NCBI GenBank assembly: GCA_977862235.1
Contig: OZ374562.1
Location: 744,001 to 808,000, forward strand
Origin: Dudresnaya verticillata
Taxonomy: Eukaryota
Length of the DNA stretch: 64,000 nt
Reading direction: 5' to 3'
The stretch's first letter is position 1. Every line of letters begins with the position of its first letter. Position numbers and translations under genes: made by a program. Under the pieces are notes generated by a model, which worked only from the letters and a program-made list of their open reading frames with translations, was not told the DNA's origin and ran no database searches. Below are positions 411 to 36,061 of the stretch, one piece after another.

Positions 411-3400
411 TCGGGGTCACACCCCCTTTGACTGGGGAACTTCAATCGGAACCCTTTCCGATCGAAGCTCAAGGGTCACGACCCGACAAGCAGGAGGATA
501 TAACTCCAAAGACTATACTGCAGAACCCTGCAAGGACTAGACGGACCTCGGCCTCGCCACCAGTGGCAGGATTACGCAGGCCCTGGCACCGGTACCGTCC
601 ACCGCATGCACAAGGCGAATTGCTGATAGCGGCAAAGCGCAACTTTAAAGTATACACAGATACGGGTTTACACCCAAGCTACCTATCGCGTAAACTTACT
701 GTGCTAGATACCGGTGCCGGCCCTAACTTTATCAGAAAATCTGAACTACCACCTCAAGCGGAGTCCCGCATTCGAGAAGGGGACATCCCCACCATCAGCG
801 ACGCCAACAATCGGCCGTTGCAAACATCCGGCGTCATCGCCTTGGTCGTTCGGCTGGGCGACCGCATTGTCAAACTTGACTTTATTGTCTGCGAGAGACT
901 CGCCGCCCCGGTCATCCTCGGGTGAGACTTCTGCGACCGTTTAGTAGAAGCCATCTACCCGAGGAGCCGTGAAGTCGAACTGGACAATGGGACTCGTGTG
1001 CCGATTACGCGGCGACCATTGAAGCGACCACCCACGGCTCCGCCACTACCTGATGATCAGGAGTATGAGCCACTGCGAGGTCACACCTCAACGAAAATAG
1101 GCGTAGCGGGACGAACCGTAATCCCAGCCCAAGCGCAAAAGTGGGTATCAGTAACCACCGAACGCGCGGGGCTGATTCGCCTTCAACCCTACGACAAGCC
1201 GTATCACCGGCAGGGAATCATCGCAACGAATGGAATAGCCCATGTTGAACCAAAGCGGCCATTCCGCATTCTAGTCGCGAACTTCACCTCGCACGACCAG
1301 GTACTCCCGAAGTACCAGGTCGTCGCTACCGCTCTCCCGCACCCCACCGCCGTGGTTCCCAGTCCCATCCGGCTGGCGGACGTGCTTGGGTTGGCTGACT
1401 TAGCGGACGATACCGCAACAAAACCCCAACGACTTGGAAGACTGTCGAATACGACAAACAAAGGTGACGCTCACGCGAAGACCCTTGAAGTTGAAAACGA
1501 ACCTCCACCTTCGGTGGACGACGTGGATTTATCCCACTTGACGGAGAATCACGCCGAGCGCGTGCGGGATTTACTTGGTAGGTTTTCTACAATGTGGGAT
1601 GGTTCACTAGGTGAGATCACCACTACGGAACACTACATCGATATGATTCCGGGTACGAGGCCGTTCTCGTGCCCACCCTATCGGGCGGGTCCGAAGCAAC
1701 GCCAAGTGGAACAAGCGGAAGTTGACCGCATGCTACGAGCTGGCGTTATAGAACCGGCACAATCTCCCTGGGCGTCTCCAGTTGTTTTGGTGCCTAAAAA
1801 GGACGGTACCTTACGATTCTGTGTCGACTACCGACGTTTAAATGCCGCAACCGTTCGGGATACCTACCCGTTACCTCGCATCGATGAATGCATCGATTCA
1901 CTCGGCGAAGCAAACGTTTTCACTACGCTCGATTGCAACTCGGGGTATTGGCAATCCCCATCAACGGTCGCGATCGTGACAAAACCACGTTTATATGCCA
2001 TGCGGGAACCTTCCGCTACAAAATAATGCCATCTGGCCTTACCAATGCACCCGCTACCTTCCAGCGGACCCTGGATATCCTGCTCTCAGGTTTCAAGTGA
2101 CAGACATGCCTCGTTTATTTGGACGATGTAATCATCTACTCCAAGGACGTGGAATCCCACTTTAAACACGTCGAACAGATCCTGACTGCATTGGACCAAG
2201 CCGGGGTTACCCTCAAACTGAAGAAATGTGACTTATTCACAAACACCGTCAACTACCTGGGCCATATCATCCGCCCCGGTGAACTGCGGGTCGACCCAAC
2301 GGTCACGGCGGCACTCCGCAAAGCAAAACACCCACGCACGCAAACGGAATTGAGGTCTTTCCTCGGATTGCGTAACGTATATAGGAGGTTTGTCCCCAAT
2401 TACTCTCACGTGGCAGGACCACTGAACCGGCTCCTCAAAAAGGATCACCCGGACAATATTGAGTCGCTCGACGAAAAACAAGAGGCCGCGTTCCAGACGC
2501 TGATCAAAGCTGTCACGGAACCACCCGTACTATCTCTGCCAAAACCTGGCTTGCCCTATTCTGTCGATACCGACGCGTCCAACTACCAAGTCGGTTGCGC
2601 CTTATTCCAAACGCACGCCGACGGTACGAGGAAACCCCTCGGGTACTGGTCCCGTTCTCTACAAGCAGCCGAAAAGAATTACTCGGTTTCCGAGAAGGAG
2701 TGTTTGGCACTGGTGTGGGCTGTTACCACTTTACGGCCCTACCTACAAATGGAAAAGTTTACCATACACACCGATCACTCCTCTCTTCGTTGGCTAATGG
2801 AGATTAATGACCCCTCCGGGCGCCTAATGCGCTGGCGCCTACGTATGTCGGAATTCGACTTTGACGTCCGTTACAAGAAGGGACGCATTAATACCCAAGC
2901 GGACGCCCTTTCGCGTCTTCAAACGCTTGGCGAAACCCAAGTCGATATCGACGACGAAATTCCGTGTTTCCACGTTGAGGCGGACGCTCCGTCAACCTGC
3001 GCCGTTTGCGATAAGGAGGAATTCCTCGAATTGGACGACGAAGTCTCCAACCAACTCCTTCTGGCGAATCCGCCGTCCAACCAACCTAAGCTCTTGCGCC
3101 CAATCACGACGGAAGAACTTCTTCAAACGCAATTAGCAGATGCCTTCTGCACCTCGCTGCGTTCTCGTCTTAACGGGGGGGAGGGGTTACCGTTCGCGCT
3201 GGACGAGACAGGAGTCCTCATTCGCACTCGAGAGGCACTTCCTCAAATCGTGATACCCTTAACTCCTCGCGCACGTGTGCTACACCTGGCACACTTCCCG
3301 AAACTATCCGGACATCCCGGTGGTCGCAAGATGTATTACTCACTCCGTAAATCATTCTACTGGCCCTCCATGGCTGTGGACTGTTACGCCACCGTAAGAA

Positions 3401-5558
3401 ACTGCACAGCATGTGTACGCAATCGCGTTATGCTACGCCGTAATACCAAGCTTATGAATCTGTTTCCAGCCAAAGCACCCCTGGAGTTTGTCTCCATTGA
3501 CATCTATGGCGAACTGATTCGTACGAAACGAGGCAATCGATTCCTCTTGGTCATCACAGACCGTTTCTCCAAACTCGTTCGGACAGTTCCGATGAAGAAG
3601 ATTACGGCTGCGAAAGTTGCCGAAGCGTTCATTACGCATTGGGTCTACGTCTACGGACCCCCGTTGTACCTACTATCGGATAATGGCGGACAATTTGCCG
3701 CAAAGTTGTTTCAGTCGTTATGTGGAACTTTGGGGATCAAAAACCTCTTTACTACAACCTATCACCCCCAATGCAATGGGCAAGTTGAGCGGCTCAACCG
3801 CACCATGCGCGCCGCGCTACTGCACTACGTTGCGGACCATCCGCGTGAATGGGACTTATTCTCAGATGCCATCACCTACGCGTACAATACGCAAGTTCAT
3901 TCTACCACGAACCTGGCCCCCTTCCAGTTGGTACTTTCCAGACCTCCACCCGCTCTAAGCGTCGAGGCACATCCCTCACTGGAACCAGTGCCGAGTTCGG
4001 CTACATTCCACGCCAAGTGGCAGTCCTGGCTCACAGGACTACTGTCAACGGCCACAAAAGGCGTTGACCAGACACAAGCGCGATACAAACGCAATTTCGA
4101 TAATAGGGTACGTCCCTCACGCGACGTCATCGGAGTAGACTCCTACGTCTACGTACGCAAGGAGTACTATCGGAAGGATACCCCAAAACACAAACTGGCG
4201 CCTATCACCGACGGCCTCTATCGCGTGAGTGACGCAAATGATAAGACGGTCACCGTCGAGAAGGACGGACCTGAATACGAGCGGATTTCCCGCGACAGAG
4301 TCGTGTCGGCACCCGCCCCACCAAGGGACGCGACCAACCAAGCCAACGCCGAAGGGACGGCAGATCCGATAGATGCGGAATTACCGTCAACAAACGATCC
4401 CAATAATGATCATACTCGAATGCAGTGCGCTGACGGAGCTACTGTGTCTCGCGGGGAAAATTCCCCAATTACTTTTCATGCTGTGGCACCAGCCATACAG
4501 CCACTAAATGATCGCTGGTTGGCGGATTTACCACCGCTGACGGTACCCGGACGCACCACTGGCGTCCGCGCACGGACTACCGCAATGCACTCGCTACCTA
4601 CCACACGCGCTGAAGCCGCCGCCCCCACTCCAACCCCTGCACCCGCAAGTCTGGAGCCGGAATCCGTGCCAGCGAACGACGCCCACGCGAATGGGCACCC
4701 CACTGCGGATCAACCACACGCCGCTACGAAAAGCACCAAGGCCGTCGACGGTACAGTAGGAGAGGAAATGCCTCGCCAGCAGCAACCTGCACACGATACC
4801 GGCACAACTGCCGCCCTGGGGCATACTCCTCAAGGGAAGCCCCTCCCTCAACCAACGAGAACTACCCTTGATAATGTGGATACCCCACAAGCGTCAACAA
4901 AGCCGGATATACTCCGCAAAGGCTCGCCTACTCGTCGAATAACCGAGAGCCCCGAGCCAGGGTCCCCTAGAGGAGCCGAAACCCGACCCGTTGATGGGAA
5001 GGATCACGCCCTCGACAGCGCGACACGCGATGTGTCACCAGGTGCGTCTAGAACGCAAGACCATCCCAAGGAGAATTCTCCACGCCCATCAGAAAGAGCG
5101 TCACATTTGACGACTGCATTAGGGAAATCCCTACGCGGCCTCTCGCGAGCCGAAGCCGCGGATCAGTAGTGGCAGGCTGCAATCAAGCTGCAACCGTGAC
5201 CCTTGGCACGCCAAGCCCCAGACGGAGTCGCCGTATTGCTGCCGTCGCGCCACGCGCGTCGCAGCTAGGCCCTCAGCAAGAGGATCCAGCTCAAGCACCG
5301 GCGCCAGATGACACCCTGTCACCAGGGCGTCGACACAATGGGGATACTCCGCCACGTGACGAGTATGTCATCGAAAAAGTGGTGAGCCACAGTTATGAGA
5401 ATACAGAACTGCTGTTCGAAGTCAAATGGTACGGCTACCCGTCCTCGCAAAATACATGGGAGCCCATACAACATCTACCGCGGAGTCAAGTTATCTCCTA
5501 TTGCAAGAGGAGGCGTCTCGGCGTCCCCTCCACCATCACCAAGGCAATGGTGGGCTAA
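401..5558 (+). pseudogene. pol: Gypsy pol (PR-RT-RH-INT-chromodomain), disrupted
   Basis: In the -1 frame relative to gag. Premature TGA at 923-925 and 2098-2100, frameshift near 1955, and a stop/frameshift at 5167-5169 before the chromodomain YVIEKVVSH..FEVKWYGYPSSQNTWEPIQHL (about 5360-5480). Confidence 0.93.
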
Positions 5559-7290
5559 CCTCCAAGCGCTACTAGGTCCAAAGGAAGTGGAGACACCACA
5601 TTGAAGAGTCGGGCCCAGGAGTCGATGCCACAGTGGTTGCTGCGCACACGACGGAGGTACTGTACGCCACGGTATAGCACCTGATTGGCCAGACGCGATT
5701 TTAATTAACGCCTCAGATTCCCACTACGCGCACCCACTCGCCCTAGTGACCTGACGCAATTGGTCGCCATCGTCGCCCCCAAAGTCGAATACGACTAAGT
5801 TAATAACGCGAGCATGCACAAAACGGGATTCCGCAACGATTGCTCCTAGCCACCAACGGCTTTGAGCTGCTGTTCCCCCACATGAAGGGGAACGCCTTGG
5901 CGCAGGCTGTCCACAAAAAGCGGAATTCCGCATCACAGGGCGTTCGCGTCAACAACAACGCGACGCTCACGACCTCCATGACATGAGGCGCTCCATAACG
6001 CCTTTTTGGCAAATCCAAAGGGGAACTCCTCCGCATAGACTGTAGCGAAGCGCAGCCATGCGCTATGGCTGTCTTCAAGCCGTCCGCGGCGGACCCTACT
6101 AAAGCTGTCATGCTTACAACGGAATTCCGTAATCGCGGGGCTGAGCAGTCAATGGCCTTTGGCATCTGCTCCCCCATGGAAAAGGGGATACCTACACCTA
6201 AACCGCCCCACGATGTGATGTCCCACGAACACCTTTTATGCCCAATAATCGGGGAACACCCCTACAAAGGCCATAGCCAACTACTGTAGCCACCTCCCCG
6301 TCGCCTACGGCAGACTCTATAACAGCAATTATGCTGAAACGGAATTCCGTGAACACTTACCGAGGGCCACTGGCGGACTGGTGTACCCCTGACTCAACGA
6401 TAAGGGGTTACCTCCGCCTGCGTGTGCCCGTGCGGCACCTACCGCCGCAAACGTTCGAGACAAGTGGTATTCCACACAACCGAGAATCCGCGCCAAAGCC
6501 CCTCGGCGCTCCTACAATGGGCAGGCCATTGTTCGTGTGGCATTCCACTTATCTAGACGGGCTGGATCGCCCTATCGCCTAACTAACCAGGAAGGCGCTT
6601 ACGCAAGTGCGTCCGGTTGACCGGGTCGGCACCCGACATATGTCGGACATATATGTCCTAAATAGGCAAACACACTCGATAACAGACTTCTGTATACCCA
6701 ATTACTGTGGCTAGGCCACAGTACGCGTTTGGTCTACTGTACTCCATTCAGGTCACGTGCAGTGCACCACTCCATGAGTATCCATTGGTTAATCATGGTG
6801 CCGGCGCACTCCGCACCAATCACCTGCCATGCGTACACACGGCGGCCCACCCTAGCGGACTACCGCAAGCACGCCGCACCTCCTCCGCCAAGTCGTTCAC
6901 GACTAAGTCGGCATTACGAGCCATGCCCAAAACGGAAATCCGTAACTATCGCTCTAAGCCGCCAACGGCCTTGAGCATTGGGAACTCCAGCAACTAGGGG
7001 ACCACTACGTCCAAGTCGCTAACGAAATGTGGACTTCCACACTGAACGGCACGCGCCTCACTGGCGACATATCGCGTTCGTCGTCCGCAGTCGGCATATG
7101 CCTATGCGAGTCGCTACGCATTACCACTCGCTGAGGGAAACTCCCCTAAGAGCGACGCGCCGCGTTACGGCAAACAACACAACCAACAGGCAAACTTTAA
7201 TAAGTCCTGATCATGGCGGCGCTCTCCCTACTACAGCGCATGGGCTACTCCCACAGGGTCGGTTGCCCCACGCCAAATGTCGACGCTCGA

Positions 7291-8587
7291 CTAGACATCA
7301 GCAGGCCCGCTTGGGCCTGCTTCATCCTCGTCCTCTAGGCTAAACCCCTTATCGACAGCGACCTCGAGGAGCTCCTCGTCGCTGCCGCGGATGGCAACCT
7401 CGGGAATTCCCGTCCTACGCAAATAGCCGATTACGGCAATCCGCTGACTAAAGCTCAACCTCACACGACGAGCGTGAGGCTGGCCCACGGGGTCAGGCGA
7501 TGGCGGACGAATGGCTGGCGGCCGAACGATCGGCACGTTCGCAATAACAGGGCCGCTGCCGTCGCCACTTGCCTCACCCGTTTCGGTCGACGTTCCCGCC
7601 GCCCCGTTCGGAGCCTCATCAGCCGGCACTGTCGCAACCGGGCATCTCTCACCAACCGGCGCGTTGACCGTCATCGTGTCATCATCGGGGATTTCCCCAT
7701 TACTGCCCGCGTCGGAGGACTGTTCCTCATAATCCGACTCCGCAATGCCACCCGCCTCGGGGTCCACCAGGTAGCCTCTCGGCTGACCAGGCGGCATCGA
7801 ACGCGGGTGGCTACGTAACCAAGCGGCACGGTCCGCAGCGACGAAAGTGCGTGTCCAAGGGTCAAACCATGCCCAATCGCCGCAAGACGGGTGCCGACGC
7901 CCAGGAGAGAAATTGGTCGACGAGGAACTCCTCTTGTTGTTGCAAAGCGGGACTCTTTGGTCATCATGGTCCCAATCAACCTGGGCATAAAACCCCAACA
8001 ACACGCGGAACTCCGCTTCGTTGTTAACTCCACCGAGGACAATCCTCAAGTCCAACTGGTCAACGAGCGTCAGGACTGTGGGAGATATGTACCACATGCG
8101 GTACGTATCGTACAATTCCCACAGCCACTGAACGGCCGTCTTCGCCACGAACTACGTGTAGTACACCGTCCACAATCCCGACTGCGGGTAGCCGATAACA
8201 TGGTGTAACTCACCGCAGGAGCCAACTCGACGAGGAAACCCTCACAACACTCCACCGAGCCCCACTGTGGGACGGGCAGCCGCACATAACATCGGTCACG
8301 ATAAGTACGATGAATTGCGTCGATTTCGACATTAGGATAAGGCACCAGGAAGCCCAGACGGGAGCGGGCGCGACGCTTCCAACGAATCTTGTCCCAATAA
8401 GCGTTGTTCTCGCGTTTGCGCACAAAGCGGAATTCCGCACGAAGCTGCACGCCGAGTAACAGGCCCGATTGACGCACCCTGGGCTCGACCCCATCCCACG
8501 CATGCGGGATGGGGAGGTTCTCCAAGGCATCAGCATAGGGGATTTCCCCGCACCGCTCGCACTATTCCCGCCGCCCCCGTTTCCCAC
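7291..8587 (-). pseudogene. Antisense ORF in the 3' region of the Gypsy element, unknown function
   Basis: ORFs 8210-8587, 8070-8525 and 7291-8148 overlap in different frames. They join into one Trp-rich protein with an acidic/Pro-rich tail (..LWTVYYT*FVAKTAVQWLWELYD..WAWFDPW..). Confidence 0.65.
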
Positions 8588-8651
8588 TCGGGTGGGCCCT
8601 GTCCCAGACTGACAGACTCCAGCGAAATTTTCACTTTATCTTGTCTACACT

Positions 8652-9326
8652 TCACTTCCTGCAGTACTGGTACGGGATACTACCAATATCCTTTATGATT
8701 TCTCTCCTCTTCGCCGCATGCGTGCACCAATTGTATCCCCTACGGATGATATTTTCCAGCCTTTGTGGTTCCTTCTGTTCTCCATTCTCAACCCTATCCA
8801 TGCAACCGCAGTGTGGATCGCTCCACGTGTCAGAGAGCTTCACTTTCTTTCTACGCTTCTTGAACTCCTCCCACTCCCGCCCCTTGTACGAGAACTTGCC
8901 TTGCCCCCTGAAGAAACTTTCTGAATAGGACTGTGGTCCTGAATTGGTTGATTCCGCCCCGTACACATGTTTGTAGAACTCTGTAAAATTGCTCCTGTCG
9001 TAGAGGCGTACACTGCGGTCGGCAAGGCTGACTACCTCCATCTTCTCGTCGATGGCACTGCTCACCTCCCGGACAATAACATATTCCCCGATTCTGTGGA
9101 TAGCCTCCTGAAGTGCTTCCCAAGGAAGCCAGAACTTGTAAAGGTCGCGAATATCCCTTCTGGCCTTCCCTGACGTTAACGATACCATTTTGTTACGTTC
9201 TCTTTCCTGACCTGCGCCTGTCCCCGAATCAGGACTTCCTGTTTAGAGCTTTAGGTCGCCCTGTTCATCATCACTGCTTATTTGTATCGACTCTTCCACT
9301 TCGATTACCTGTTTGATGTCGCCCAT
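8652..9326 (-). pseudogene. Degenerate ORF of unknown function
   Basis: 178-aa ORF with protein-like composition. The frame appears to continue upstream through a stop to an ATG near 9326. No motif recognised. Confidence 0.35.
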
Positions 9327-9474
9327 CTCGAATGTGCGTCGAGGTAACCTTCCTCGTGCTGGCCGGAACACGAACAATTCGTAGTGCGAGGGGCCTTCGA
9401 TATGTACCATCTAGTAAGATCTAGAGGGCTCGGATCCATGCAACTACCTCGCAGCAGGGACTGTAATCTCAATC

Positions 9475-9543
9475 GGTATGTGGAACCATAGTAATGAACT
9501 GGAATAACGGTTATTCCAGTTCAGTACTATGGTTCCACATACC
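9475..9543. repeat. Near-perfect hairpin (34-bp arms, 1-nt loop)
   Basis: ggtatgtggaaccatagtaatgaactggaataac-g-gttattccagttcagtactatggttccacatacc, one mismatch. Confidence 0.95.
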
Positions 9544-9545
9544 CG

Positions 9546-9647
9546 ATGGTTTTTCCTGGCTAAATAATCGCCCTGAGCAGTATGGACGTGACACAGAAAG
9601 GGCGTGTCCATACTGCTCAGAGCGCTTATTTAGCCAGGAAAAACCAT
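9546..9647. repeat. Near-perfect hairpin (42-bp arms, 18-nt loop)
   Basis: atggtttttcctggctaaataatcgccctgagcagtatggac ... gtccatactgctcagagcgcttatttagccaggaaaaaccat, two mismatches. Confidence 0.95.
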
Positions 9648-10378
9648 GGGGACGTATGCAGGACACATGACGTGCGTCCGCACATTTTCCGCAAACAGTC
9701 TCCAGATTCGCATGACGTTGCTCACAGTAACAAACTTGTTCACGCCGCAGATTTTGTTATGAACTGTTCTGGAAATATCGGACATACCGACCTCTGTACA
9801 GTACGATTACAGAGACAGGATCAAAGAATATCCTAGTAGGAGCGTTTCTGCTCCTTGTCAGATTCATATCTGGGGAAGGATCGAGTATCACGAAGGCATT
9901 ACCAATCATTATTGCTGATGCCCTCGTCATATTCATAGCAATTATTATGAGTTGAGATCGTACGCGTATGCCCTAGAGACATTCCAACCGTCACATCTGC
10001 CGGGAACTATACTTGTCTGGTGATTCCCGCTGTTTCGACCTTTTACGGTCACTGTGGTACCTCTAGCGATTCCGGTCCGGGAAATTCTGAGTTGCGTGAG
10101 GTGACTACGAATCTCCTGCGCCCGCACGCCCGGAAGCTTTGTTTCCAGTACACGCTTCGTTGTCACTTTTAGGGTGATTCTGAGGCATTGAAACGTGAAA
10201 GGGACTTAGCTCCAACCAGGACCTACTCCCCAGCTGCTGTATTGTACGGAATATGCCCATTGTTGGAGCTTCCGCATTGGGAGTTAAGTATTGTCTCTGC
10301 ATTTCCCCCAACTCCGAGATCAACATTTTCTTCACAGTCATCTCATTGCCATTGCGACAGACCAACTGCATATGCGCG

Positions 10379-13300
10379 ATGGGGAGGAAGTCCAACAGAA
10401 CGAAGAAGATGCCCGTGACAAATGACCGTAATGAAGTCGGCCTGCACCAGCAACAGATTCTGTTCGCCGACCTGCTCGACGGTTCTCTGCTGAAGCATGT
10501 CGATCCGCTGGCCTATGTACCTCTCGCCAACGTGAGGCCGATCTCCAGGTCCGGAGTCGGACGGCTCAAGTGTATGTTCAGAGTATAAGGAGCGGGTTCA
10601 AGTCAGGGGATGGCGCATGCTCCGGAGGCGATAGGATATGTAGCAGGGAGTGACATTACAGGTATTATTGAGCTCACGGGAGTCCTTCGAAAGCATGTAG
10701 GAGATTATTTCCGAAGTACTCGCAACAAGGAATGAACGCACCGTTCCGAGAAGGAGATACAAGAAACCATGAGTTCGAGAGTGTGGCATAGCTGTAAGAC
10801 CAGCTGCGCCACGTGTGCACTGCTGTGCGCATGCTGTCAGCCGGTGGCGCCAAAGCCCACTGAACTGTAAGGGAGTGCGCAGTGGCGCCCACGTGTGCAC
10901 GCGTTCGCGTGTGACACTGAAACTCCCATGTAATTTCTACGTTTATTGTTGTGTAGTGTACAGCACCGTCTAGTGTAACGCCCTGCTGTCCTGCGCGCCG
11001 TGCACACGCACTCCGGCGCAGAGCCGTTGAGTGCGTGACACGCGCGCGCGCACTCTGGCGTCGAGCCGTTGAGTACGTGTGGACCGTTTCGCCCACGCGC
11101 GCCCCCGGGTTACCGTTACCCGTACGCGTCGACGCGTGTTGGGGCCCGCCGGCGTACCTCCCGGGTTGGTGCCGCCGCAGGCCCTGTAGTATATCTAGTA
11201 GTCGCCCCCCTGGGCTTGAGTAAACAAGGCAAGCCAGCCTACGCGAGGCTTACCCCTTTCTGCTTTGGGTTTCCTTCCCAGTCCTTCGCCCTACGGCTTC
11301 CCTCTTTCCCTAGCCGCCTAGGCTTTCCTTTTCCTTTCCCTACCGTCGGCTTCGTGCCGCCCCACTACGGGGACGCAGGGATCAGGCCGCTGCCGCCCGC
11401 GTACGGTACGCCCCGCTCGCGCTCAGGCTTCGACGCCGTTGATCCGCGACCGTCGACGGCGCGCGAGGCCGACACCACCGCTCTACCACCACCGCTACCA
11501 CCCTTCGACGGGTCTGGGTGCGACTACGAGACCAGCCGCGCTAGACGTAATTTCGACCTGATGTCTATCCCACAGAGAGGGTTCTGGTATGGTTTCGTAG
11601 ACGGCATGCACCGTTAGGTTACAATTATTGAGCTCATGCATACACAGTACGAGATGTGGAAGACATTCTCTTGGCCGGTTATGCATATCAAGGGCGGGGC
11701 GTCTCTGCAGGGTCTGAAACAGTTTGCAACAAACCAGAACCGCAAACATCAGTTTGCTTGTTATGTAGAAACCACGTTCTTTGACGAACTGAAAGGCCTG
11801 CGTGAAGAAGCCGACAGTCTGCAGGCTGAAGCCAATGGAAAAGGGCCGACAGCGAAAGCAGTTGCCGCTGCCTTTTATGGCGCTTCTCATCTTCACGAGA
11901 ATACAATCAGGCAAACAACCCAGGTTGTACTTAGATTGCATAGATCGGCTGTATATTCTATCGGGGAGATTGCAACACAGGAGGATGTAGACTTTGCGGC
12001 CTCGGTGTCCATTCGAAGTGCTGGGGCTGGAGTTTCCAGGCAACTCGTATTGCCTTCGGTCGACTGCCGAGTCTATCGGAATTTTATCCATGTATCTTCA
12101 CTGAAGTCTGCTACAGTGTTTATGAATGCCAGCCGTTCGCCAGACCGGGTACAGGCCCAGATCTGTGCCTTGTACAGGCTGCGGGAAAGGGCCAGAATGC
12201 ATAATTTCAGACCTGCACCTTACAAGGTCACAGTCGGGGAATTCGACAGAACAATAGACGCGTTGGTAGAGGTTAGAAAGTTCGAGAGTCTGAGGGAGTC
12301 CCAGAACTGGCCTGCAGCTAAGTCCGTTCTGGCGACTATTCTATTGCACTCGCGCAAACTGGACCTGGAGGTTATGTCGAATCGTGGGAACAGTCTCATA
12401 CTGAAGTCGATTCTGACCATGTACCGTGACAGCTGCCCGGGGGAGGCCCCGCATAAAATCGACAAATACGACCGCAGATTAGAAGTTGCGCAGGCACGAT
12501 CGTCGTCTAGCACAGATCCAACGCATCCTGAAGAAGTGAAGAGCCCTGACAGTCACATGAATCATGTGTCGTCGGGAGTGATCTTGAACAAAAATGCTTC
12601 TAAATCTTCCCCACAGACAGATGAAGAGAAGGCCAACAACGACAACCGCATTTATCCCGACCATCTGGGCTCCACTGCGAAAAGTGCAACTCGGGATGAG
12701 TCCCTTCCCGTCATCAACGACAATGGAGATGACGACGTCGCACCTCTCCTTTTTCACTCAACGGCCACTACAATCATATCAAAAAGATTGGATACTTGTA
12801 AGAGGCTGAACATGGATGATAGAGACGAAGTCGCAACACCGGACTAGATACTGAAAGCGGAAGGCCTCGAGTTTCACCAAATGTGCTGGCAGAGCTACAA
12901 CCAAAAGTACAGTAAAAGCGAGAGCAAACGGTTTGCCTTCATTCTGTCCGAAACCCCGTACGGTACCCCTGCCTCACAGTCTCGAGCGGGGAAATCATAT
13001 GACAACTACCTCAGAACTTCAGAAATGAACAAGTTGGCTGCGTTTTGCAGGCAGACAATCGCGCCGGGTGGTTGGGTGTTCATACTCGTGTCAATTGAGA
13101 CCTTTGACCCCATGAGACAGGCACTGTCAAAGAATGGTTTCGATTGCCCAACGTATGCATTCGTGATTCTGAAGGATACGGGCACTGTTCAGCAATCCAG
13201 GGGCACCGAGAGGCCTCAAAATGGCGCAGATATAGCCGTTTTTGGGAAAGCACCGGGCATGCATCCATCAGGTTCAGAGGCAGACTTGAAGAGACCATAC

Positions 13301-14110
13301 CACTTGTTTAAATTCCAGTATAAGAGGAAGCTCGCATGTATGTCTTCTGTTCCGGTCTTCAAGAAGAAATTGCTGAGACCTCAGACAAGATCGCCGGTTC
13401 TGACTGAAGAAAAGAATGTTGAATTGCTCGCGGAAGTGCTGAAAACGTTCAGCGCAGAGCATGGGCATGTTCTGCACATGTACGCTGGCAGGATGACGAC
13501 CAGAATAGCGTGTGTTGCCACCAGTCGGAAGTGTACATTCATCGGGCAAAATGCCGACACGTTCAGACATATACACGCAAGGCTATCGCGACTGGCGCAA
13601 GAGGCACAACGTCTCACCTAGGCAGCACCGGTGAAGAAAACATGTAATGCTTCCGAGCAGGCGTCTGAAAAGGTATGTGCACCGGACTCAGAACAAGCTC
13701 CCCTGCAGGCGGGGAGCTCAGAGCGTAAACGAGTGTCTTCTGAAGGGGTGTCTGAACATATGGAACCGTTGGCCAAGCTGCAAAACGTCGAGACAGGAGC
13801 AATGCCTGCCAAAGTCACGGGACAGAATGAGAACCAGGGAGAGGGGGAGACGAAGCCCAACGCCGAGAAAATTGTGGGGGAGATGAAGTCGCTCTCTTGA
13901 TTTAGGGATAGCATGCACGGTACTGCGTTTTCGCCCTTTCAAATGTAAGATCAGCATCTCATTGCAGTCTATGCATTCAAAGCGGCGACAAAAAGCTCCC
14001 ATTTCCGGTACCCCTACACGCATCGGGAGGTAGATGGTGAGGCCCCGACAACTTTGGGTGATATCAAAAGCATTTTCGCTAGGGACGTCAATCAGATGGC
14101 ATTAAAATGA
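10379..14110 (+). pseudogene. ParB-like domain + HTH fused to a beta-class N6-adenine/N4-cytosine DNA methyltransferase; split by a solo LTR and nonsense codons
   Basis: Removing LTR 10782-11574 plus one TSD copy restores one continuous frame, interrupted only by stops (10586, 10733, 11615, 12845, 13619, 13898, about 13946). ParB-like motifs: VRPISRSGVGRLK..WYGFVDGMHR..FATNQN..TFFDEL. MTase motifs: FILSETPY (DPPY-like, 12947-12961), IAPGG, EKNVELLAEVLKTFS..VLHMYAGRMTT..AC (motif X-I, about 13410-13520). The true stop is uncertain. Confidence 0.8.
10782..11574 (+). mobile_element. Solo LTR, family A
   Basis: Termini TGTGGCATAG...CTATCCCACA. 5-bp TSD GAGAG at 10777-10781 and 11575-11579. Homologous to 16037-16973 and 52007-52807. 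Strand inferred from a TATA-like box followed by a pyrimidine-rich tract. Confidence 0.93.
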
Positions 14111-16036
14111 ACTAAGGGAACGAGCTTTTAACGCTCATTGACGAATCAACCGAGCCTTTTGAGACTAGCTTGCGCCCCTTCGCTTCGTCTCCTTACAATA
14201 GATCGACACCAATCCTCTGCTAACCATGTCCAAAGCATCCACCATACAACGCGCGCAAATCAAAACAGTCCACTCCGCGTCCGGGAACCCGCTCCAGGTT
14301 ACACCGCGCTCTCTGGTGGCCTGAGAACTTGGCCACGGTTCAAGTTCGGTTGCAAATGGTGTGCTGCGCCCACGACAATACCCACTCTACTGATGCTCGC
14401 TCCTGGTATCGCTTGCTCCACCCCGCGATTCACGGACAGCGTTGTCATCTTCTCCACCTTGCTTTAACCGAGCTTCACGCATGCAAGACCGCGACTGGGC
14501 CGGGTTCGCCGCGCACTTGTGCAGTCGCTTGGACATCTGGGGCCTGCTGCTCGCAGCAGTAGGAAGGCCGGGGCGGTAGCAGCGTAAGCGGGAAACGTAC
14601 AGCAGGAACAATCGGAAATCGCTGAGTCTTGCGCTTCACGTAAGCGTGAGAGAACGCTTCGTAGGCCATGCCTGGGTTGAACATGTCGAAAAAGAGGGCA
14701 CGGCAGTGCGCGCTGTACATTCTGTTTCACCGTGGATTTTTTATAGGTATGTGCTCTCCTCGTACTGGAGAAGGTATTCCGTATTATTGATAATACGATG
14801 ACAGTTCTGATTGCTTCCAAAAGCCGAAAAGCGTTCTGAGAGCTTCCCTTTTTGCACTGCCGAGAACAGCTGTTTCGTTATCGTTGGGCCCGCAAGGAAA
14901 ATATCTGTTGAAAAGCATTACTCTCGTAGAAAATATGAAGCCTTTTTAGATATTCCCGTTCTGGCCCCATCAATACCCACTGAGAATCATTTGACCGAGC
15001 ACTTCCACGAAAAGCTATGTTGTATTATCCATACTGCACTTTTAGTTTCGCGGAGCTTTCCCTTTGCAAAACCTAAACTATTGTCGTGCCCCTGAGCACA
15101 ATCGTCTTGATCCTGACGCTTCTAACCACAATGATTGTGGGTCTCCGCGCGCTTCTCCAGAAAGCCGCAGAATCTCGTCGCCCCCTTGTGTCACGACCCG
15201 CACCTCCGCTCGTGTTTCTCAGATGGTGTGTCCCAAATCAAGCTTGCGGCATATGCTACCTCGGAGCACTACGTTCGTGGCCTGCATAGTGCTATCTCCA
15301 ATTCAGCCCATGGTGATGACAGTGATGCATACAATCCCAGATGTGCTCGCGCACCCTACACAATGCGCCCTGCCTTGCCCTGGGCGCATACCGCTCTCTA
15401 CAGCCCAAGCACAATAGCGCCATGTGACTATGAGAACTGCCGCGTTGCCGTGCCGATCACTCACCAGCACCCGAGCCCGCATGGGCGCGGTGGATATGTC
15501 TCTGTGCGACCCTAAGCGCGAAGATAACGAGCTGAGTGAGGCATACGCGAGAAAACAGTCGTTTTCATGCTCCTCGAGGCTCTCAACGATGTCTAGCAGA
15601 CACGTTGCGGGGTTGTCGACGGCGGAAAGCTTGCCCTACGGCACGTTCTTGCCCTACGGCAAGTTCTTGCCCAACGGCGCGATGACATAGATCGCTACCG
15701 TGCCCCGTGTGCGGGTGCAACGACACGCTGATGAAGACACGCCGCCCCAGCTCGATTCTCATTCTCTGCATCGTCTGGTTCTACCCCGCTTTCGACGCCC
15801 GATACGACAAGAACCGACCTAGCACACTATTATCGCCTATCCTAGCACACTATTGTCGCCTATGGATCCCACGTGCGCAGGCAGACACGGCTTCATTATT
15901 CTGTTCAGTGGAGGTATGCACTGACTGTCAAGCTGCTGATCTCAGCAGGGGCGAAGGTCAATTGTAGCAGAAAAACCTACTTCTGATTACTGCGGATGAT
16001 GGAAGGCTCGAGGTTGTGCAGATAGGACTTGATACA

Positions 16037-16973
16037 TGTGGCATAGACGTCAGGTCGAACTGAAATCTAGCTGCGCTGGTCGATCAGTAGCACCCAGACC
16101 CGTCGAAGGGTGGTAGCTGTGGTGGTAGAGCGGTGGTGTCGGCCACGCGCGCCGTCGACGGTCGCGGATCAACGGCGTCGAAGCCTGAGCGCGCACGGGG
16201 CGTACCGTACGCGGGCGGCAGCGGCCGGATCCCTGCGTCCCCGTCGTGGGGCGGCACGAAGCCGACGGTAGGAAAAGGAAAAGGAAAGCCTTGGAGGCTA
16301 GGGAAAGAGGGAAGCCGTAGGGCGAAGGACTGGGAAAGAAACCCAAAGCAGAAAGGGCAAGCCTGGCGTAGGCTGGCTTGCCTGGTTTACTCAAGCCCAG
16401 AGGGGCGACTACTAGATATAATACAGGGCCTGCGGCGGCACCAACCCGGGAGGTGCGCTGGCGCGCCCCAACACGCGTCGACGCGTACGGGTAACGGTAA
16501 CCCGGGGGCGCGCGTAGGCGAAACGGTCCAGACGTACTCAACGGCTCGACGCCGGAGTGCGCGCGCGCGTCACGCACTCAACGGCTCTGCGCCGGAGTGC
16601 GTGCACACAGCGCGCAGGAAAGCAGGGCGTTCGACCGCCGCTTACACTAGACGGTGCTGTACACTACAAAACAATAAACGTAGAAATTACATGGGAGTTT
16701 CAGTGTCACACGCGAACGCGTGCACACGTTGGCGCCACTGCGCACTCCCTTACAGTTCAGTGGGGCTTCGGCGCCACCGCTGACAGCGTGCGCACAGCAG
16801 TGCACATGTGGCGCAGCTGGTCTTACAGCTGCGCGCGCCACTGCGCACTTCCTTACAGTTCAGCGGGGCTTCGGCGCCAACGGTTGACAGCGTGCGCACA
16901 GCAGTGCACACGTGGCGCAGCTGGTCTTACAGCTGCGCGTGCGTGGCACAGCTGGTCTTACAGCTATGCCACA
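16037..16973 (-). mobile_element. Solo LTR, family A
   Basis: Termini TGTGGCATAG...CTATGCCACA. TSD ATACA at 16032-16036 and 16974-16978. Inverted copy of 10782-11574 with an internal tandem duplication of about 100 bp. Confidence 0.95.
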
Positions 16974-17047
16974 ATACAAACGCATAGAATGGTTTCAATG
17001 CGGAAATAAGAGGGCAGCTGGATAAGCATATGGAGGTTCTCGATTAC

Positions 17048-19478
17048 CTACCTCCTCTTCACCTTGCTACGTCCAAGGGCCGCCATGACGTCGCAGAATT
17101 GCTTTTGCGCCATCATCGATGATAATTGCTTGATGGCATTCCTAGAAAGGTCACTGCTGCACGCGACGCGTGCACGGACTCTTCCTGAAAGCCCCGCCCC
17201 ATTGAGGAATCGAAGAAGTTCCAGGAACATTTTCTGGGACTTGCGAACTAACGCTACAACTCACTGGTGTGGTCTTGATTGAACCTTTACTCAATGTAGC
17301 TATGCAATCCTTGCGCAATAGTCTTGATGAAGACTCTCGCGAATCTTCTTTTGTACATTGACGGGGATGCGAAGTGCTTGTGAATCCACTAAATTCCACG
17401 AGCACCGAGCCAGTTGGAATCTTTCCAATCCATGGCGCTTAGTCATCTAAGATGGAAGGTTGATACCGCAGGCTATATGCGTCATGCCGTTCTTGCTCAA
17501 TTGCTTCGTACCAAGATATCTGCAGCTGCACCGATTTTGCCTTCCTGCCTCGTGTGCTGCGCACCACCTCTTGAATCTTCGCAATCTATAAGGGGCATTC
17601 CGGAGTGCTGCCCTCATAGCGAATGGCAACGAAATTATTGCGCAAGAATGGAACTTGTGTGTCCTCCATTAGGTCTCTCTTGTTTACTTCGGGACGGAAC
17701 TCGAGCTCGTGCTCTTCTAGCCCTTCCCTTGCGTATTTCCCATTGGTTTCCAAGACAGGATCTAGATCCCAGTGAAAGGGTTCCGTCCTTTCGCGATAGA
17801 TTTCGTCCCGCAACTTCCGAAGCTCTTCATGTTTTCTACGTATTTTATCCGCGCTTCTTCGGATCGAATCCAATCACCAATTTCTTTCAAATCGGGGGGA
17901 GAACCCGCCCGAGATGGAGGGGTTTTGGACAAGTCAGGGGGAACACAATGAAACCATTCTGCGAACTGCATGTGAGTAGCGGTTTCCACTCATCGTCGCA
18001 CTGCACACGGGCCTGGCACCCCGTCTGGAAACGCGCATTAGCTCCTTCCGCCTCTCCCGCCACCCTAAAGAAACGGAAGAACCTGTAGTGTGAAAAGGTT
18101 TCCACCTTCCCTGTACACTTAGAATCCTGACAAAGACCTGAGAAGCCTGTAATGTGCAGTATTCTTGCAACGTACGGCTGCGGCTGGTAGGATTTGCTCC
18201 GCACTTCTATCATATCATCCATAATTACGGAATCTCTTGTCTCCAACCTCCTTACGGTACAACTGAAAGTCTGATCAATATCAGGGTGAGTTTATCCTAT
18301 CGGCAGAAATAAGGTTTGGACCTCTTGAAAAAATCCCACGCTACTAGACTTTCCAGGTAGGAGAACATGAACCTGTTCTTGTTCTCTCTGGTACAGTTGT
18401 CCAATTGCAGCAGCAGCGTTGGTTGCAGATTCCCACTTGCTTGCATGAGGCTGAGCGATCTATGTATTGCTTCTATTAAATGATTGGCACCGGATTCGTA
18501 CTCCGCCGTCATGACGAAAAGGCACAGCCTATTCTTAGGTCCATGTTCCAGGACGCCAATACGTTTCACCCTGATTGCATGGTCTACTGTAGCGTTCGTG
18601 TTGACAAAGAAGTGCGGCAGCCCAAACGCGGACTGTTCTGCCCCGTCTACCATTATAGAGTAATACTCGTCAGAGAACATTATCGCCTTCTCGGCAGTCC
18701 TTTTGTACTGAACGCGCCCTTTCCAGCCCATGGCCAGATGCTGTCGCTTGCGCATCTTAAAGGGCCTCCCCGCCCGCTTGTCGGTCCCTGTCTTGGCAAG
18801 ACCATCGCGAATCTCCTCACACTCTGTGCACTTCGTCAAGCGACGTACTTTTCGGGCCCTAATGTGGGCAAAGTGTGCCTTGCATGTAGCGTAAAAGTAG
18901 ATCGCTCTTGCAGGTGCCTCACCACTATACAAAATCCCCTGGTCTTTTGTGAATTGCTCGTACACAGTCTTCCTGTCAAAGTATGGCAGATGCAATTCCG
19001 CTCTGTCCGGCATACGGTCTGCAGTAGCTTCAGAAATCCGCTCGAGGTGCGAAAAGAATCTGTTCCGTCGGTCAGAATTTGCGTCTCAAGGCGTGGCAGT
19101 GATAAGGGACGACGAGCCGCCGAACGTCTTGACAGACGTTTGCAAGTCACGTGAAAACCTGAACGCTTTATCCATGAAATTGTAGCACAATAGAGCGCCA
19201 TTGAACCGGTACAATCTGTCAGGCTGGAGCAGGCGGGATAGATAGTCCCTCCGTCGTTTTTGCATCATCAGAACACGACGAGCTTCAGCCTTGAGGTAAA
19301 TCTGCTCACAGGCATGGAAACATTTCTTCGTAGAACAGCACTTCTTGCGCTCCCAGCCTTCCGTGTCTATCCTCGCTAAAGCAGCCTTGTGTCTTATCAT
19401 CAAGGCAGTCTCGTCCTTCTTGGGCCTCTTACTGACACGTGAACGACGACGATACATCCGCTTCTTGTAAACAGCCAT
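17048..19478 (-). pseudogene. Sola-like (DUF7869-type) DDD/E transposase, frameshifted
   Basis: CCSTKKC..; MPDRAELHLP; KCTEC..QH; SIMVDGAEQS..LPHF; GAN; LLLQLDNCTRENKN; then after a frameshift FLPIG*THPDIDQTFS (about 18265-18310). C-terminal fragments continue to about 17050. The superfamily assignment is by motif memory. Confidence 0.78.
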
Positions 19479-19574
19479 TACTCTCGTACCGTCTCCTCTA
19501 CCCTCCTGAGAACGGACATGATGAGCTGCTCCTCCAGAATCTGCGTCCTCATCCCGGTAATCCGGATGAGAGAA

Positions 19575-20249
19575 CTACTCTGTTCCATCTACTGCTTCGT
19601 CAGCTGACCTGCTAGCTGGCGTTGCGACATCGTCAGCAGGGTCTCCCTGTGCGCCATCCCGATTGACAAGGTCAAGAGTGGATTCCCAATCCCCATCATC
19701 TTCGCGATAGCCTTCCCCGTCGATTATGTCTGCCACTTCCCTGCCCTCCACGTCGTCTCCCTGGTCTGGTCCTGCTTCTTGGTTTGGACCTGCTCCGTGG
19801 TTTGGCCCTGCTTCGTGGTCTGATCCTGCATCCTGGGTTGATCCTGCTTCTTGGTCTGGCCCTAGTTCCTGTTCTGGCCCTAGTACCTTGCCTGACCCTA
19901 ATCCCTGGTCTGGTCCTAGTCCCTGGTCTGGCCCTGCGGTCCCTGGGTCCGCTTCGGCCATATTTTTGTCGTCTTCAATAATCCCCTTCACCTTGTTATG
20001 AGAGATGTGGTTTGCTGGCTTTCTAGGGCGTGGTCGTAGTGGGGGCTTTTCCACTGGGGTGTACTCCAGAGGAGAATTCTCATCTCTATCATCTTCAGGC
20101 ACAATTTCACACTTTCCCCCGGGTGACATGAATGGGTCTGGATCCCGCACGACGCTGTCTCGACCTCCGGCTTCTGCAGCTACAGGCGCGTTAGGAGGGG
20201 TATTAGGAGGCCCCCTGACCGGCCTTGGGCTGCAAGTGGTGCCCTTCAC
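19575..20249 (-). CDS. Acidic low-complexity ORF with hexapeptide repeats, probably the N-terminal extension of the transposase gene
   Basis: 224 aa, same strand and directly upstream of the transposase; GPDQGL/GPNQEA repeats. Confidence 0.45.
   Translation of the reverse strand: MKGTTCSPRPVRGPPNTPPNAPVAAEAGGRDSVVRDPDPFMSPGGKCEIVPEDDRDENSPLEYTPVEKPPLRPRPRKPANHISHNKVKGIIEDDKNMAEADPGTAGPDQGLGPDQGLGSGKVLGPEQELGPDQEAGSTQDAGSDHEAGPNHGAGPNQEAGPDQGDDVEGREVADIIDGEGYREDDGDWESTLDLVNRDGAQGDPADDVATPASRSADEAVDGTE
19760..19939. repeat. 18-bp tandem repeat, 10 copies
   Basis: Consensus about cctggtctggccctgctt; encodes the GPxQxx repeat on the minus strand. Confidence 0.9.
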
Positions 20250-21127
20250 TGGGCCCGGTTTTTGTGAAGAACCGGATCAGGGTATTCCTCACGGTCCCAT
20301 TCAGGTAACGTTTCCTCTCCAGGGTTCCTCTCTGGCCCTGACTCTATCGCCTCCTTCAGATACACTGCCACCATGTCCTCCAACTGGTACAAATCCGAAC
20401 AGTGTTCACCTTTATCCATGTTTTAGCATCCTAGGAACCGCCCTGTTAGATTAGTACTGAAGCAGGCTGGGTAGGCGCTCTGCTCCGGGTCGGCAGTGCA
20501 CTCGGTGGATCGCTACCCATACCTCCCCGAGGGTTGCTGCTTGCTGAGAGAATGACCGCCAAGGACTGTGCAGAAACGACCGCTTGTGTCCTCCGTGCCG
20601 GGCAGTGAAAGAAAAAGAGTGGCACGAGCCATATGTTTTCCTCTAAGAGTGAGCGAGACGCGCGCACCCCGCTTGACATGGGGTTGAGTACTACTTGCCT
20701 CCGCGGATACAGGGCGACCTGAGGCTTCTTCCATAGCTTTAAAACGCGAGAGAAGGGGCCAGTCCGGCGATGCTTGGGAGGGAGGCAATCAGGAGAGCTC
20801 GGAGGTCACCGGGAGGGTAAAGGTGCAGTGCAGTCACCCATCGTTGGGAGGCATGTCTTAAATAGGCGAGGTTTGCGATTAGCGGCAAGATATCAGGGTT
20901 CCAATTACTGGGTCAGGAACTTGTCTTTGCGGCTATAAACTTCGCATTGGGTGTGGTGTCTCGAAGAACAGCGGATTCATAGTTTGTCGTAGACAAGCGC
21001 TGCGGCCTAGGTACCTTTGGGAGTCGCGTCGTGTAAACCATCAGGACTTCACTGCATTGGAGTCGGATCGAGGGCTTCATAACAAGGAGCTAGTATCAGC
21101 TGCAGTCGAACGGGTTAGCATGAACGA

Positions 21128-21490
21128 CGGGTACGCGCGCGCCAATGAGGCCGGCGAACACGTCGTGCTAGTTGCCCGACGGGCACTCGCGTGGCAATGA
21201 AGCGGGCGAGCACGAGTGACGGGCACTTGCGCGGCAATCAAACGGGAGAACACCAGGGAAGTGCACACGCACGGAAATGAAGCGGGCGAGCAAGAGCGAT
21301 GGGCACACGCGTGGCAATGAAGCGGGCGAGCCCCAGCGACGGGAAGAATGTGCACCGCAGCGAGGAGGGGCACCGGGCTGGGGGAATGGCCGAGTGACAC
21401 AAGGCTGCTGTGAAGCTAGTGTGATCGCGGCCCTGGGGGCGAGCAGGAGCGACAAACAGACGCGCGGAAATCAGGTGGGCGAGCAGCAGG
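21128..21490. repeat. Degenerate repeat array (about 40-50 bp period), possibly subterminal
   Basis: Core gcgtggcaatgaagcgggcgagc and variants near 21137, 21190, 21229, 21269, 21309 and 21462. Confidence 0.7.
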
Positions 21491-21899
21491 AGAGGCGGGT
21501 AGGAGCAGCTGGCAGTGGCGAGAGCAGTGGTGCGGCGAGAGCAGTGGTGCGGAAAGTGCGTTGGCGGCCCTGGGCGCGTGCAGGGCGAGGGCAAAATCTA
21601 ATCAAAAATGGTTGGCAGAAATTACGAAAAGTGGGAAACTTTCGGAAACGTTTCAGGGGGTAAACAGACTGTGTTTAGTACGCCGTAACTTCTGCATTAC
21701 TTAAGCTATGGACAAAACGATTTCACCACTGTTCTCAGCTTACGCTTCTGTTTCCAACAAGGTAACGAAACCGGGGTACAGTTTCATACTGATTTGCAAC
21801 GTTGATTCTGAAAATCTCGAAAGTAGTGTTATATTTGTGTGCTACATCAGTCCCGGGTGCAATCGTCACCTCCATCATGTCCCATAAATGCGAATGTGC

Positions 21900-28555: not shown

Positions 28556-28592
28556 CCTGAGGACATTCCAATCAGGCCAACTACTTCCGCGT

Positions 28593-35932: not shown

Positions 35933-36061
35933 CGCGGAAGAATGCCAGCAACCTAGCTTAAATCAGCTAGCAGCCGTTTCACCAGAGTAGTAGTACACTT
36001 ATAGGTGTATACTACTCTCTACGTGCCGGTTGGGTGACTCCTCTGTCACCCGAGTCCAGGA

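What the first reader, a model, noticed from the sequence alone, without database searches (positions are those of the whole stretch)
10379..14110. Eukaryotic ParB-HTH / amino-DNA-methyltransferase fusion hidden by an LTR insertion
Seen: excising the solo LTR and one GAGAG gives ..MSSR|GFWYGFVDGMHR.. in frame, and the whole region reads in one frame of up to about 980 codons. It has a ParB/Srx-like signature (R..V.RL....VDGMHR....A..QN) and a helix-turn-helix-like segment (PTAKAVAAAFYG..NTIRQ). After a linker comes a permuted MTase with the catalytic motif before the SAM motif: SETPY is two substitutions from SDPPY, and VLHMYAG mirrors VLDPFAG. Known: this order defines beta-class N6A/N4C MTases (N6_N4_Mtase). 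ParB-MTase fusions are common in phages, and beta-class enzymes were co-opted for 4mC in bdelloid rotifers and Marchantia. Inference: a prokaryote- or phage-derived 6mA/4mC writer, possibly with a CTP-dependent sliding clamp, spreading as transposon cargo in an alga. This copy is dead.
Basis: partly seen in the sequence, partly recalled or inferred. Interest (0 to 1): 0.92.

Follow-up and report, generated by a model that had tools for sequence, protein, structure and literature searches.

The report
ParB-methyltransferase fusion family, likely transposon cargo
This is a broken copy of a gene whose many intact relatives join a domain predicted to fold like the bacterial DNA-partition protein ParB to a bacterial-type DNA methyltransferase, and it is likely cargo that seaweed transposons would use to put methyl marks on adenines in their own DNA.

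Summary
Observation confirmed, with corrections. A 793-nt LTR-like insertion (TG..CA, GAGAG duplication) splits a 977-codon frame that has 7 internal stops and decayed catalytic motifs, so this copy is dead. Intact relatives exist: 45 of the 46 hits of 780 aa or more among the top 150 carry both halves in one ORF. In relatives' models the C-terminal half is a beta-class amino-methyltransferase (CcrM Z 23.7). The N-terminal half is ParB/Srx-like by fold only (Foldseek top 9 all ParB/Noc; VIA Z 8.8). All 10 nearest relatives keep DPPY and none of 96 aligned domains has SPPY, so 6mA is favoured over 4mC; about 70% of the family has lost the canonical motif. No prokaryotic or phage member turned up. 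A 2025 Bostrychia preprint already reports a PF01555 methylase (PAG2, with SET) and a ParB-like protein (PAG3, with 2OG oxygenase) as separate red-algal transposon cargo; the fusion is not described there. Host taxon, element boundaries, CTP use and clamping are untested. Verdict: new variant of a known kind, interest 0.6.

The parts
10379..10781 (+). 5' part of the gene: N-terminal arm and first half of the ParB/Srx-like domain (conserved Arg in NVRP 10529-10540); stops at 10586 and 10733
   Evidence: that Arg is R in 77 of 78 aligned relatives
10782..11574 (.). LTR-like insertion, 793 nt, TG..CA, 5-bp GAGAG target duplication (10777-10781, 11575-11579); likely a solo LTR
   Evidence: 92% copy at 16037-16973 and 75% partial copy at 52013-52550
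11580..11790 (+). second half of the ParB/Srx-like domain: VDGMHR box (11597-11614), stop at 11615, ..QN box (11723-11740; the family's Arg is Thr here)
   Evidence: fold of relative P0018
11791..12000 (+). HTH-like helical segment (PTAKAV 11846; RQTTQ 11909)
   Evidence: helices 204-269 of the P0018 model lie inside the spans matched to pNOB8 ParB, KorB and Spo0J
12062..12490 (+). conserved family-specific all-helical domain (DCRVYR..), no family match
12497..12847 (+). low-complexity linker; stop at 12845
12848..13618 (+). beta-class amino-methyltransferase domain, decayed at motif IV (ETPY for DPPY), at the SAM motif (HMYAGR for DMYAGT) and at motif II (IGQN for IEQN)
   Evidence: PF01555 E 1.2e-5, profile 3-208 of 221, 25.9 bits, just under the 26.7 cut-off
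13619..14110 (+). second linker and decayed C-terminal ~100-aa beta domain shared with 23 of 150 relatives; stops at 13619, 13898, 13946; terminal TGA 14108-14110
   Evidence: no credible Pfam match
9475..9651 (.). two abutting DNA hairpins (arms 34 and 46 nt, different sequences) about 730 nt upstream of the start codon; link to the gene unproven
   Evidence: (z -15.5, 0 of 200 shuffles as stable)
17070..20420 (-). decayed DUF7869 gene, convergent with the fusion gene; transposase-like by recalled motifs; limits approximate; membership in the same element unproven
   Evidence: PF25273 E 5.8e-19 and 6.3e-9 in two frames; frames; no TIR found

Best explanation
The locus is a dead copy of an intact, diverse gene family that fuses a domain predicted to be ParB/Srx-like, with an HTH-like part, to a beta-class DNA methyltransferase, and it is likely a red-seaweed DNA-transposon accessory gene whose product would bind the element's own DNA and write N6-methyladenine nearby. 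Shown: architecture, intact relatives, DPPY and SAM motifs in the window's clade, decay of this copy. Predicted by models of relatives: both folds. Inferred: 6mA on DNA (from DPPY and closest structures CcrM, M.BceJIV, MboIIA); DNA binding through the HTH-like part, gated by a nucleotide bound at the R / DGxHR / RxxN boxes; carriage by DNA transposons; a benefit to the element (keeping it expressed or marking self, as VANDAL anti-silencers do). In most family lineages the catalytic motif has drifted (EPPx, xIPx, DPF) while the fold and SAM motif remain, so these would act as non-catalytic DNA or chromatin binders.
For: phmmer: 404 representatives at E<=0.001, best 41% identity over 672 residues. 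45 of 46 hits of 780 aa or more, and 51 of the top 150, carry both halves. All 10 rows in the window's supported clade (99*) have DPPY. MTase: profile vs PDB E 7e-19 to M1.HpyAVI; model matches CcrM Z 23.7, rmsd 3.0, 232 aligned. N-terminus: Foldseek ranks 1-9 all ParB/Noc, E 0.014-0.23; VIA top two pNOB8 ParB Z 8.8 (rmsd 4.2, 216 aligned) and PadC Z 7.1 (rmsd 2.6, 97 aligned); viral ParB/Spo0J rows are frequent. Mobile-element signs: near-identical (97-100%) whole and split versions within clusters; TE-only neighbourhood with a DUF7869 gene 3 kb away; PF01555 and ParB-like genes are highly mobile cargo of red-algal Plavaka, Mutator, Zisupton and Fanzor-encoding elements (10.1101/2025.02.11.637652). 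GxxR is kept in 10 of 13 members with DPP[YF] against 10 of 35 without (p 0.004, kin not independent), which suggests the two activities work together.
Against: No relative could be seen in its DNA context, and no terminal inverted repeat or target duplication bounding an element was found. No tool named the host taxon of the window or of any relative. ParB likeness is weak by score: no Pfam ParB hit, no PDB profile hit, hhalign probability 4.5% against three ParB domains from metagenome loci, and Z 8.8 is near the usual background for helical models. Only 14 of 49 two-domain relatives keep DPP[YF]. Split variants may be alleles or assembly errors. DPPY suggests but does not prove 6mA on DNA. 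No activity data.
Confidence: 0.55

Rival explanations
1. The family is PAG2 itself (or its SET-less form): the Bostrychia PAG2 protein also has this ParB-like N-terminus, unnoticed because only PAG1 and PAG3 were run through HHpred. Same mechanism as the best explanation, but less new.
For: PAG2 has PF01555 and is widespread and mobile across red seaweeds; the methods passage shows InterPro only for PAG2. PAG3's best HHpred hit, 7BNR, is also rank 2 in my fold search. The family's C-terminus is variable (beta domain in 23 of 150; Cys-rich tails in P0008 and P0010).
Against: No SET (PF00856) in any of 106 relatives scanned.
Confidence: 0.45
2. The ParB/Srx domain is not a DNA clamp but a nucleotide-sensing or NTPase switch of the DndB/SerK/Srx/GmrSD kind that regulates the methyltransferase or represses the element's own promoter.
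For: The box reads DG-x-H-R, not ParB's GERR (consensus motifs recalled). The only recurrent sequence-level hints are DndB (E 0.0005 for P0017; 4 of 30 members) and DGQHR (E 0.017-0.021). Srx and SerK appear; GmrSD and DndB-like rows.
Against: The best structural matches that span both the nucleotide-binding and helical parts are partition proteins (pNOB8 ParB, Noc, KorB, Spo0J).
Confidence: 0.4
3. A domesticated host gene family, or cargo of an endogenous virus or plasmid-like element, rather than transposon cargo.
For: Long intact ORFs and deep divergence (24-50% identity) imply long selection; no element ends found.
Against: No member in IMG/VR scans (only 18-27% MTase-domain matches) or in 50,697 phages; no viral gene among 149 + 12 window frames scanned; this copy decayed among transposon debris.
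Confidence: 0.15
4. The enzyme writes 4mC, or methylates RNA, rather than 6mA on DNA.
For: Beta-class enzymes include N4C writers; bdelloid N4CMT matches the model at Z 19.1.
Against: 0 of 96 aligned domains have SPPY, the motif that PMC8885841 ties to N4C enzymes; MT-A70 enzymes score far lower (Z 14.6 or less).
Confidence: 0.12

Closest known systems
Plavaka accessory genes PAG2 and PAG3 of red seaweeds (10.1101/2025.02.11.637652; section 8 and methods passages read)
   Same: PF01555 methylase and ParB-like domain (7BNR hit) carried as mobile cargo; inverted repeats beside the ParB gene; self-modification proposed.
   Different: There the domains are reported in two genes (PF01555+SET; ParB+2OG oxygenase). 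Here they are one polypeptide, with no SET in 106 relatives scanned; the upstream hairpins are two different sequences, not a tandem array; the nearby transposase-like gene is DUF7869, not Pfam Plavaka.
Beta-class N6A methyltransferases CcrM, M.BceJIV, MboIIA, M1.HpyAVI (PF01555)
   Same: Fold and motif order, DPPY before the SAM motif.
   Different: 15-21% identity; fused to a 430-aa ParB-like module; no partner nuclease in view; catalytic motif lost in most lineages.
Phage/prokaryote ParB-MTase fusions (L043, L068, L075; ParB-Tls loci in PMC4738411, passages and section 8 read)
   Same: ParB-like domain N-terminal to a beta-class DPPY MTase.
   Different: About 440-520 aa; no HMM similarity of the N-termini; not sister in the MTase tree. 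The fusion looks independent or too old to trace.
Bdelloid N4CMT and Marchantia 4mC enzymes (PMC8885841, passages read)
   Same: Bacterial amino-MTase recruited into a eukaryote; in N4CMT with an added domain.
   Different: SPPY/4mC host genes there; DPPY and likely element-borne here.
DAM-carrying retrotransposons (10.64898/2026.05.21.726589, first fifth and word searches read) and chlorophyte-type Dam with ParB-type HTH (PMC4738411)
   Same: Eukaryotic adenine MTases of prokaryotic type, some element-borne, some with a ParB-type HTH.
   Different: Different MTase class; the first paper has no occurrence of ParB, PF01555 or Plavaka.

Membership tests
beta-class amino-MTase (PF01555) | motif IV precedes SAM-binding motif I; permuted fold | tested here: met
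beta-class amino-MTase (PF01555) | intact [DNS]PP[YF] and SAM motif in this copy | tested here: not met
   ETPY, HMYAGR, IGQN and 7 stops; met in all 10 nearest relatives for DPPY
beta-class amino-MTase (PF01555) | methyl transfer to DNA | not testable with these tools
   needs an assay
N4C writers (N4CMT type) | SPPY motif | tested here: not met
   0 of 96 aligned domains
ParB/Srx superfamily | ParB/Srx fold | tested here: met
   on a model of relative P0018: Foldseek ranks 1-9 ParB/Noc; VIA Z 8.8 and 7.1. Scores modest
ParB/Srx superfamily | GxxR box with upstream Arg and downstream Asn | tested here: met
   R 77 of 78, G 84 of 86, box R 43 of 86, N 85 of 95; equivalence to ParB boxes I-III is recalled
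ParB CTPase sliding clamps | sequence match to ParB_N/ParBc profiles | tested here: inconclusive
   no Pfam or PDB profile hit; PHROG ParB E 0.03-0.08 in 2 of 11
ParB CTPase sliding clamps | HTH domain binding a parS palindrome | tested here: inconclusive
   helical part aligns within ParB spans; upstream hairpins are long and unlike each other
ParB CTPase sliding clamps | CTP binding, dimer gate closure, spreading | not testable with these tools
   needs biochemistry
PAG2 | PF01555 domain | tested here: met
PAG2 | SET domain | tested here: not met
   none in the window frame or in 106 relatives
PAG2 | sequence homology to Bostrychia PAG2 | not testable with these tools
   supplements closed
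PAG3 | C-terminal 2OG oxygenase | tested here: not met
   an MTase follows the N-terminal module in 45 of 46 long relatives; Pfam alone would miss this oxygenase
DNA-transposon cargo | lies between TIRs/TSD together with a transposase | tested here: inconclusive
   DUF7869 gene nearby; no TIR; no genome

The most novel reading that the evidence does not exclude
Seaweed transposons encode a one-chain load-slide-write machine: a CTP-gated ParB clamp loads at the element's own palindromes, spreads along the element and drags a DPPY methyltransferase that lays a domain of 6mA over it. It would be a nuclear ParB clamp used as an epigenetic spreading device, with catalytically dead paralogs acting as readers or competitors.
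Probability: 0.18. Interest if true: 0.92.

Novelty: new variant of a known kind. Interest (0 to 1): 0.6.

Why it matters
If active, intact members would be a transposon-encoded source of 6mA in a multicellular lineage, although 6mA is described as lost from the major multicellular lineages and AMT1 was not found in Pyropia (10.64898/2026.05.21.726589). They would also be a second case, after VANDAL, of an element that binds and modifies itself. The fusion gives a single testable protein for the open question raised for PAG2/PAG3: how a ParB-like reader is coupled to a DNA-modifying writer. The family supplies natural controls, with intact and motif-less clades.

Tried and rejected
No whole genome was held. 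No sequencing run was listed; this is no evidence on expression. Earlier-findings look-ups returned nothing. Word-index search with the decayed protein found nothing; the 'longer' search covered only 2077-5000 aa and found nothing, so it does not test SET-fused forms. Context scans found no family member: viral, JGI metagenome, GTDB (one generic MTase), phages; all matches were MTase-domain only. Three cluster look-ups (30 proteins) gave no names or taxa. PDB sequence search with the window MTase alone: 0 hits. Homodimer prediction of the N-terminal module gave no verdict (alignment not used, own fold uncertain). The C-terminal beta domain recalls the CACTA Tnp1/En/Spm domain from memory, but no such Pfam hit came in 12 + 1 sequences and it was not folded alone. 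Read-through under another genetic code was rejected: three stop types, an insertion and decayed active sites. Alternative frames at the junction were rejected by the alignment. No TIR between 9240-10378 and either 20300-24200 or 14110-16036. Rfam: 0 hits. DUF7869: no paper, no PDB hit. A possible outer LTR 15189-17061 is one of 6 such flank-matched TG..CA pairs, so not established.
Full report
Observation. The insertion at 10782-11574 is 793 nt, begins TGTGG, ends CCACA and has GAGAG on both sides. A 92% copy at 16037-16973 has its own ATACA duplication and a 75% partial copy lies at 52013-52550, so it is a repeated element inserted independently, most likely a solo LTR. The coding frame runs from ATG 10379 to TGA 14108, 977 codons once the insertion is discounted, without frameshift but with 7 internal stops of all three types.

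The family. phmmer with the 3' part (X at stops) found 404 representatives at E<=0.001, 82 at E<=1e-30; 150 were listed. The 5' part alone matches 58 of the 150, and the alignment runs straight across the insertion point. By family profiles, 51 of 150 carry both the N-terminal and the MTase domain at 60% coverage or more, including 45 of the 46 proteins of 780 aa or more. The layout is: ParB-like domain, HTH-like helices, a conserved helical domain, a variable linker, the MTase, and a variable tail (a ~100-aa beta domain in 23 of 150). Within 90% clusters, whole and split versions differ by 0-3%, for example P0171 (986 aa) against 540-aa and 416-aa pieces. That fits young multi-copy elements, but alleles or assembly errors are not excluded. 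No relative carried a name or taxon in 30 look-ups.

Methyltransferase. The window's domain hits PF01555 at E 1.2e-5 over profile positions 3-208 of 221, just below the curated cut-off; 39 of 39 long relatives hit it at E<=0.05. The family profile finds M1.HpyAVI, M.BceJIV and CcrM (E 7e-19 to 5e-11), and a model of P0026 (pLDDT 88) matches CcrM at Z 23.7, M.BceJIV 22.3, MboIIA 21.4, bdelloid N4CMT 19.1 and MT-A70 enzymes at 14.6 or less. Of 96 aligned domains none has SPPY. On a quick tree of 92 family domains (4 near-duplicates dropped) and 72 of 80 metagenome/genome MTases, the family is one side of a branch (100*), and the window sits in a clade of 11 (99*) whose other 10 rows all have DPPY. 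The outgroup was sampled by a DPPY pattern, so no donor can be named. Overall 27 of 92 domains, and 14 of 49 two-domain proteins, keep DPP[YF]; whole clades read EPPx, xIPx or DPF while mostly keeping the SAM motif. The window's ETPY, HMYAGR and IGQN are decay from DPPY, DMYAGT and IEQN.

ParB-like module. Sequence searches barely see it: no Pfam ParB and no PDB profile hit, only weak DndB, DGQHR and PHROG ParB hints, and hhalign probability 4.5% over 18 columns against three ParB domains. Structure does: the P0018 model (pLDDT 87, pTM 0.82) returns ParB/Noc at Foldseek ranks 1-9 (E 0.014-0.23, none under 0.001), pNOB8 ParB (Z 8.8, rmsd 4.2, 216 aligned) and PadC (Z 7.1, rmsd 2.6, 97 aligned) at VIA ranks 1-2 with Srx, KorB, SerK and Spo0J lower, and many viral ParB/Spo0J rows. 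The scores are modest, but three libraries agree. An upstream Arg (77 of 78), DG (G 84 of 86), the box Arg (43 of 86) and a downstream Asn (85 of 95) are conserved; their equivalence to the ParB CTP boxes is from memory. The box Arg is kept in 10 of 13 members with DPP[YF] and 10 of 35 without (Fisher p 0.004; kinship not corrected). Whether the domain clamps DNA or only senses nucleotide is open.

Context. The window is transposon debris: a Gypsy pol at 320-5169, a MULE fragment at 26570-27355 and a decayed DUF7869 gene on the minus strand at about 17070-20420, convergent with this gene. Two abutting hairpins at 9475-9651 are far beyond chance (z -15.5), but an unrelated hairpin of like size lies at 57854, and no TIR links the region upstream of the gene to the far side of DUF7869. 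No family member was found in viral, metagenome, GTDB or phage scans; all matches were to the MTase domain alone. The host is therefore unidentified; a red seaweed is inferred from the literature match and the TE-rich, intron-free anatomy.

Mechanism. Most likely the intact protein binds the element's own DNA through the HTH-like part under control of a nucleotide bound by the ParB/Srx domain, and the tethered DPPY enzyme writes 6mA locally, favouring the element's expression or marking it as self (0.55). Architecture and decay are shown; folds are predicted; substrate, targeting, mobility and benefit are inferred.

Known kinds. The Bostrychia preprint (10.1101/2025.02.11.637652; section 8 and passages) reports PAG2 (PF01555 + SET) and PAG3 (ParB-like, best hit 7BNR, + 2OG oxygenase) as cargo of Plavaka, Mutator, Zisupton and Fanzor-encoding elements, with inverted repeats beside PAG3 and self-modification proposed. 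PMC6431247 (passages) notes 16-20 kb Chondrus En/Spm elements with 4-5 ORFs. PMC4738411 (passages, section 8) lists eukaryotic N6A-MTase clades, one with a ParB-type HTH on a Dam of another class, and no red-algal clade of this form in the parts read. PMC8885841, PMC12695648 and PMC12730594 were word-searched only; 10.64898/2026.05.21.726589 was read in its first fifth and word-searched. Ten paper searches gave no description of a ParB + PF01555 fusion in a eukaryote, but Repbase Reports, most subscription journals and the bioRxiv supplements with the PAG sequences were out of reach and bear directly on novelty. No SET was found in 106 relatives, so this is not PAG2 as defined, yet PAG2 was not run through HHpred and may share the N-terminal module (0.45).

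Verdict. Real, dead here, alive elsewhere; a new variant of known transposon-borne epigenetic cargo. Interest 0.6; 0.92 if the CTP clamp reading (0.18) holds.

Noticed in passing
window 17070-20420 (-): Decayed DUF7869 (PF25273) gene with a frameshift near 18295 and 18-nt repeats at 19739-19954; acidic motifs (DGAEQ, LDNCTRENKN) recall a Sola1-like DDE transposase (recalled). No paper in the library mentions DUF7869.
   Followed up: partly
window 9475-9543, 9542-9651, 57854-57929, 46072-46109, 37553-37608, 29145-29205: Six long DNA hairpins in 64 kb with unrelated arm sequences; origin unexplained.
   Followed up: partly
window 15189-17061: Possible older LTR (TGTCACG..CA, CCTTG flanks, 931 nt net) with the second LTR-like copy nested in it; one of 6 chance-level candidates.
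   Followed up: partly
window 16732-16973: The second LTR-like copy carries an internal ~104-nt tandem duplication absent from the first.
   Followed up: no
window 320-9242: Ty3/Gypsy pol with a chromodomain-like end, followed by long antisense frames (7294-8151, 8073-9242) without Pfam match; no matching LTR pair seen.
   Followed up: no
window 34038-36733 (-): Frames with RT/RNase H-like motifs of DIRS type (recalled; no Pfam hit).
   Followed up: no
window 26570-27355 (+); 27886-28558 vs 59579-60253; 24087-24467 vs 53817-54235: MULE transposase fragment and two dispersed repeats at 81% and 76% identity.
   Followed up: no
window 21112-21489: 40-nt tandem repeat array just beyond the DUF7869 gene, possibly subterminal repeats.
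   Followed up: no
P0001 residues 20-270 (relative): Nearest ESM Atlas clusters are unnamed Mollusca, Porifera and Bacteroidota proteins and fungal DUF3723 (0.94-0.95), then ParB_N: possibly a wider eukaryotic ParB/Srx-like group; DUF3723 is recalled as Starship cargo; no paper links it to ParB.
   Followed up: partly
L043:315-1724, L068:130-1683, L075:4573-5898: ParB-MTase fusions in metagenome contigs with N-termini unlike this family's.
   Followed up: yes
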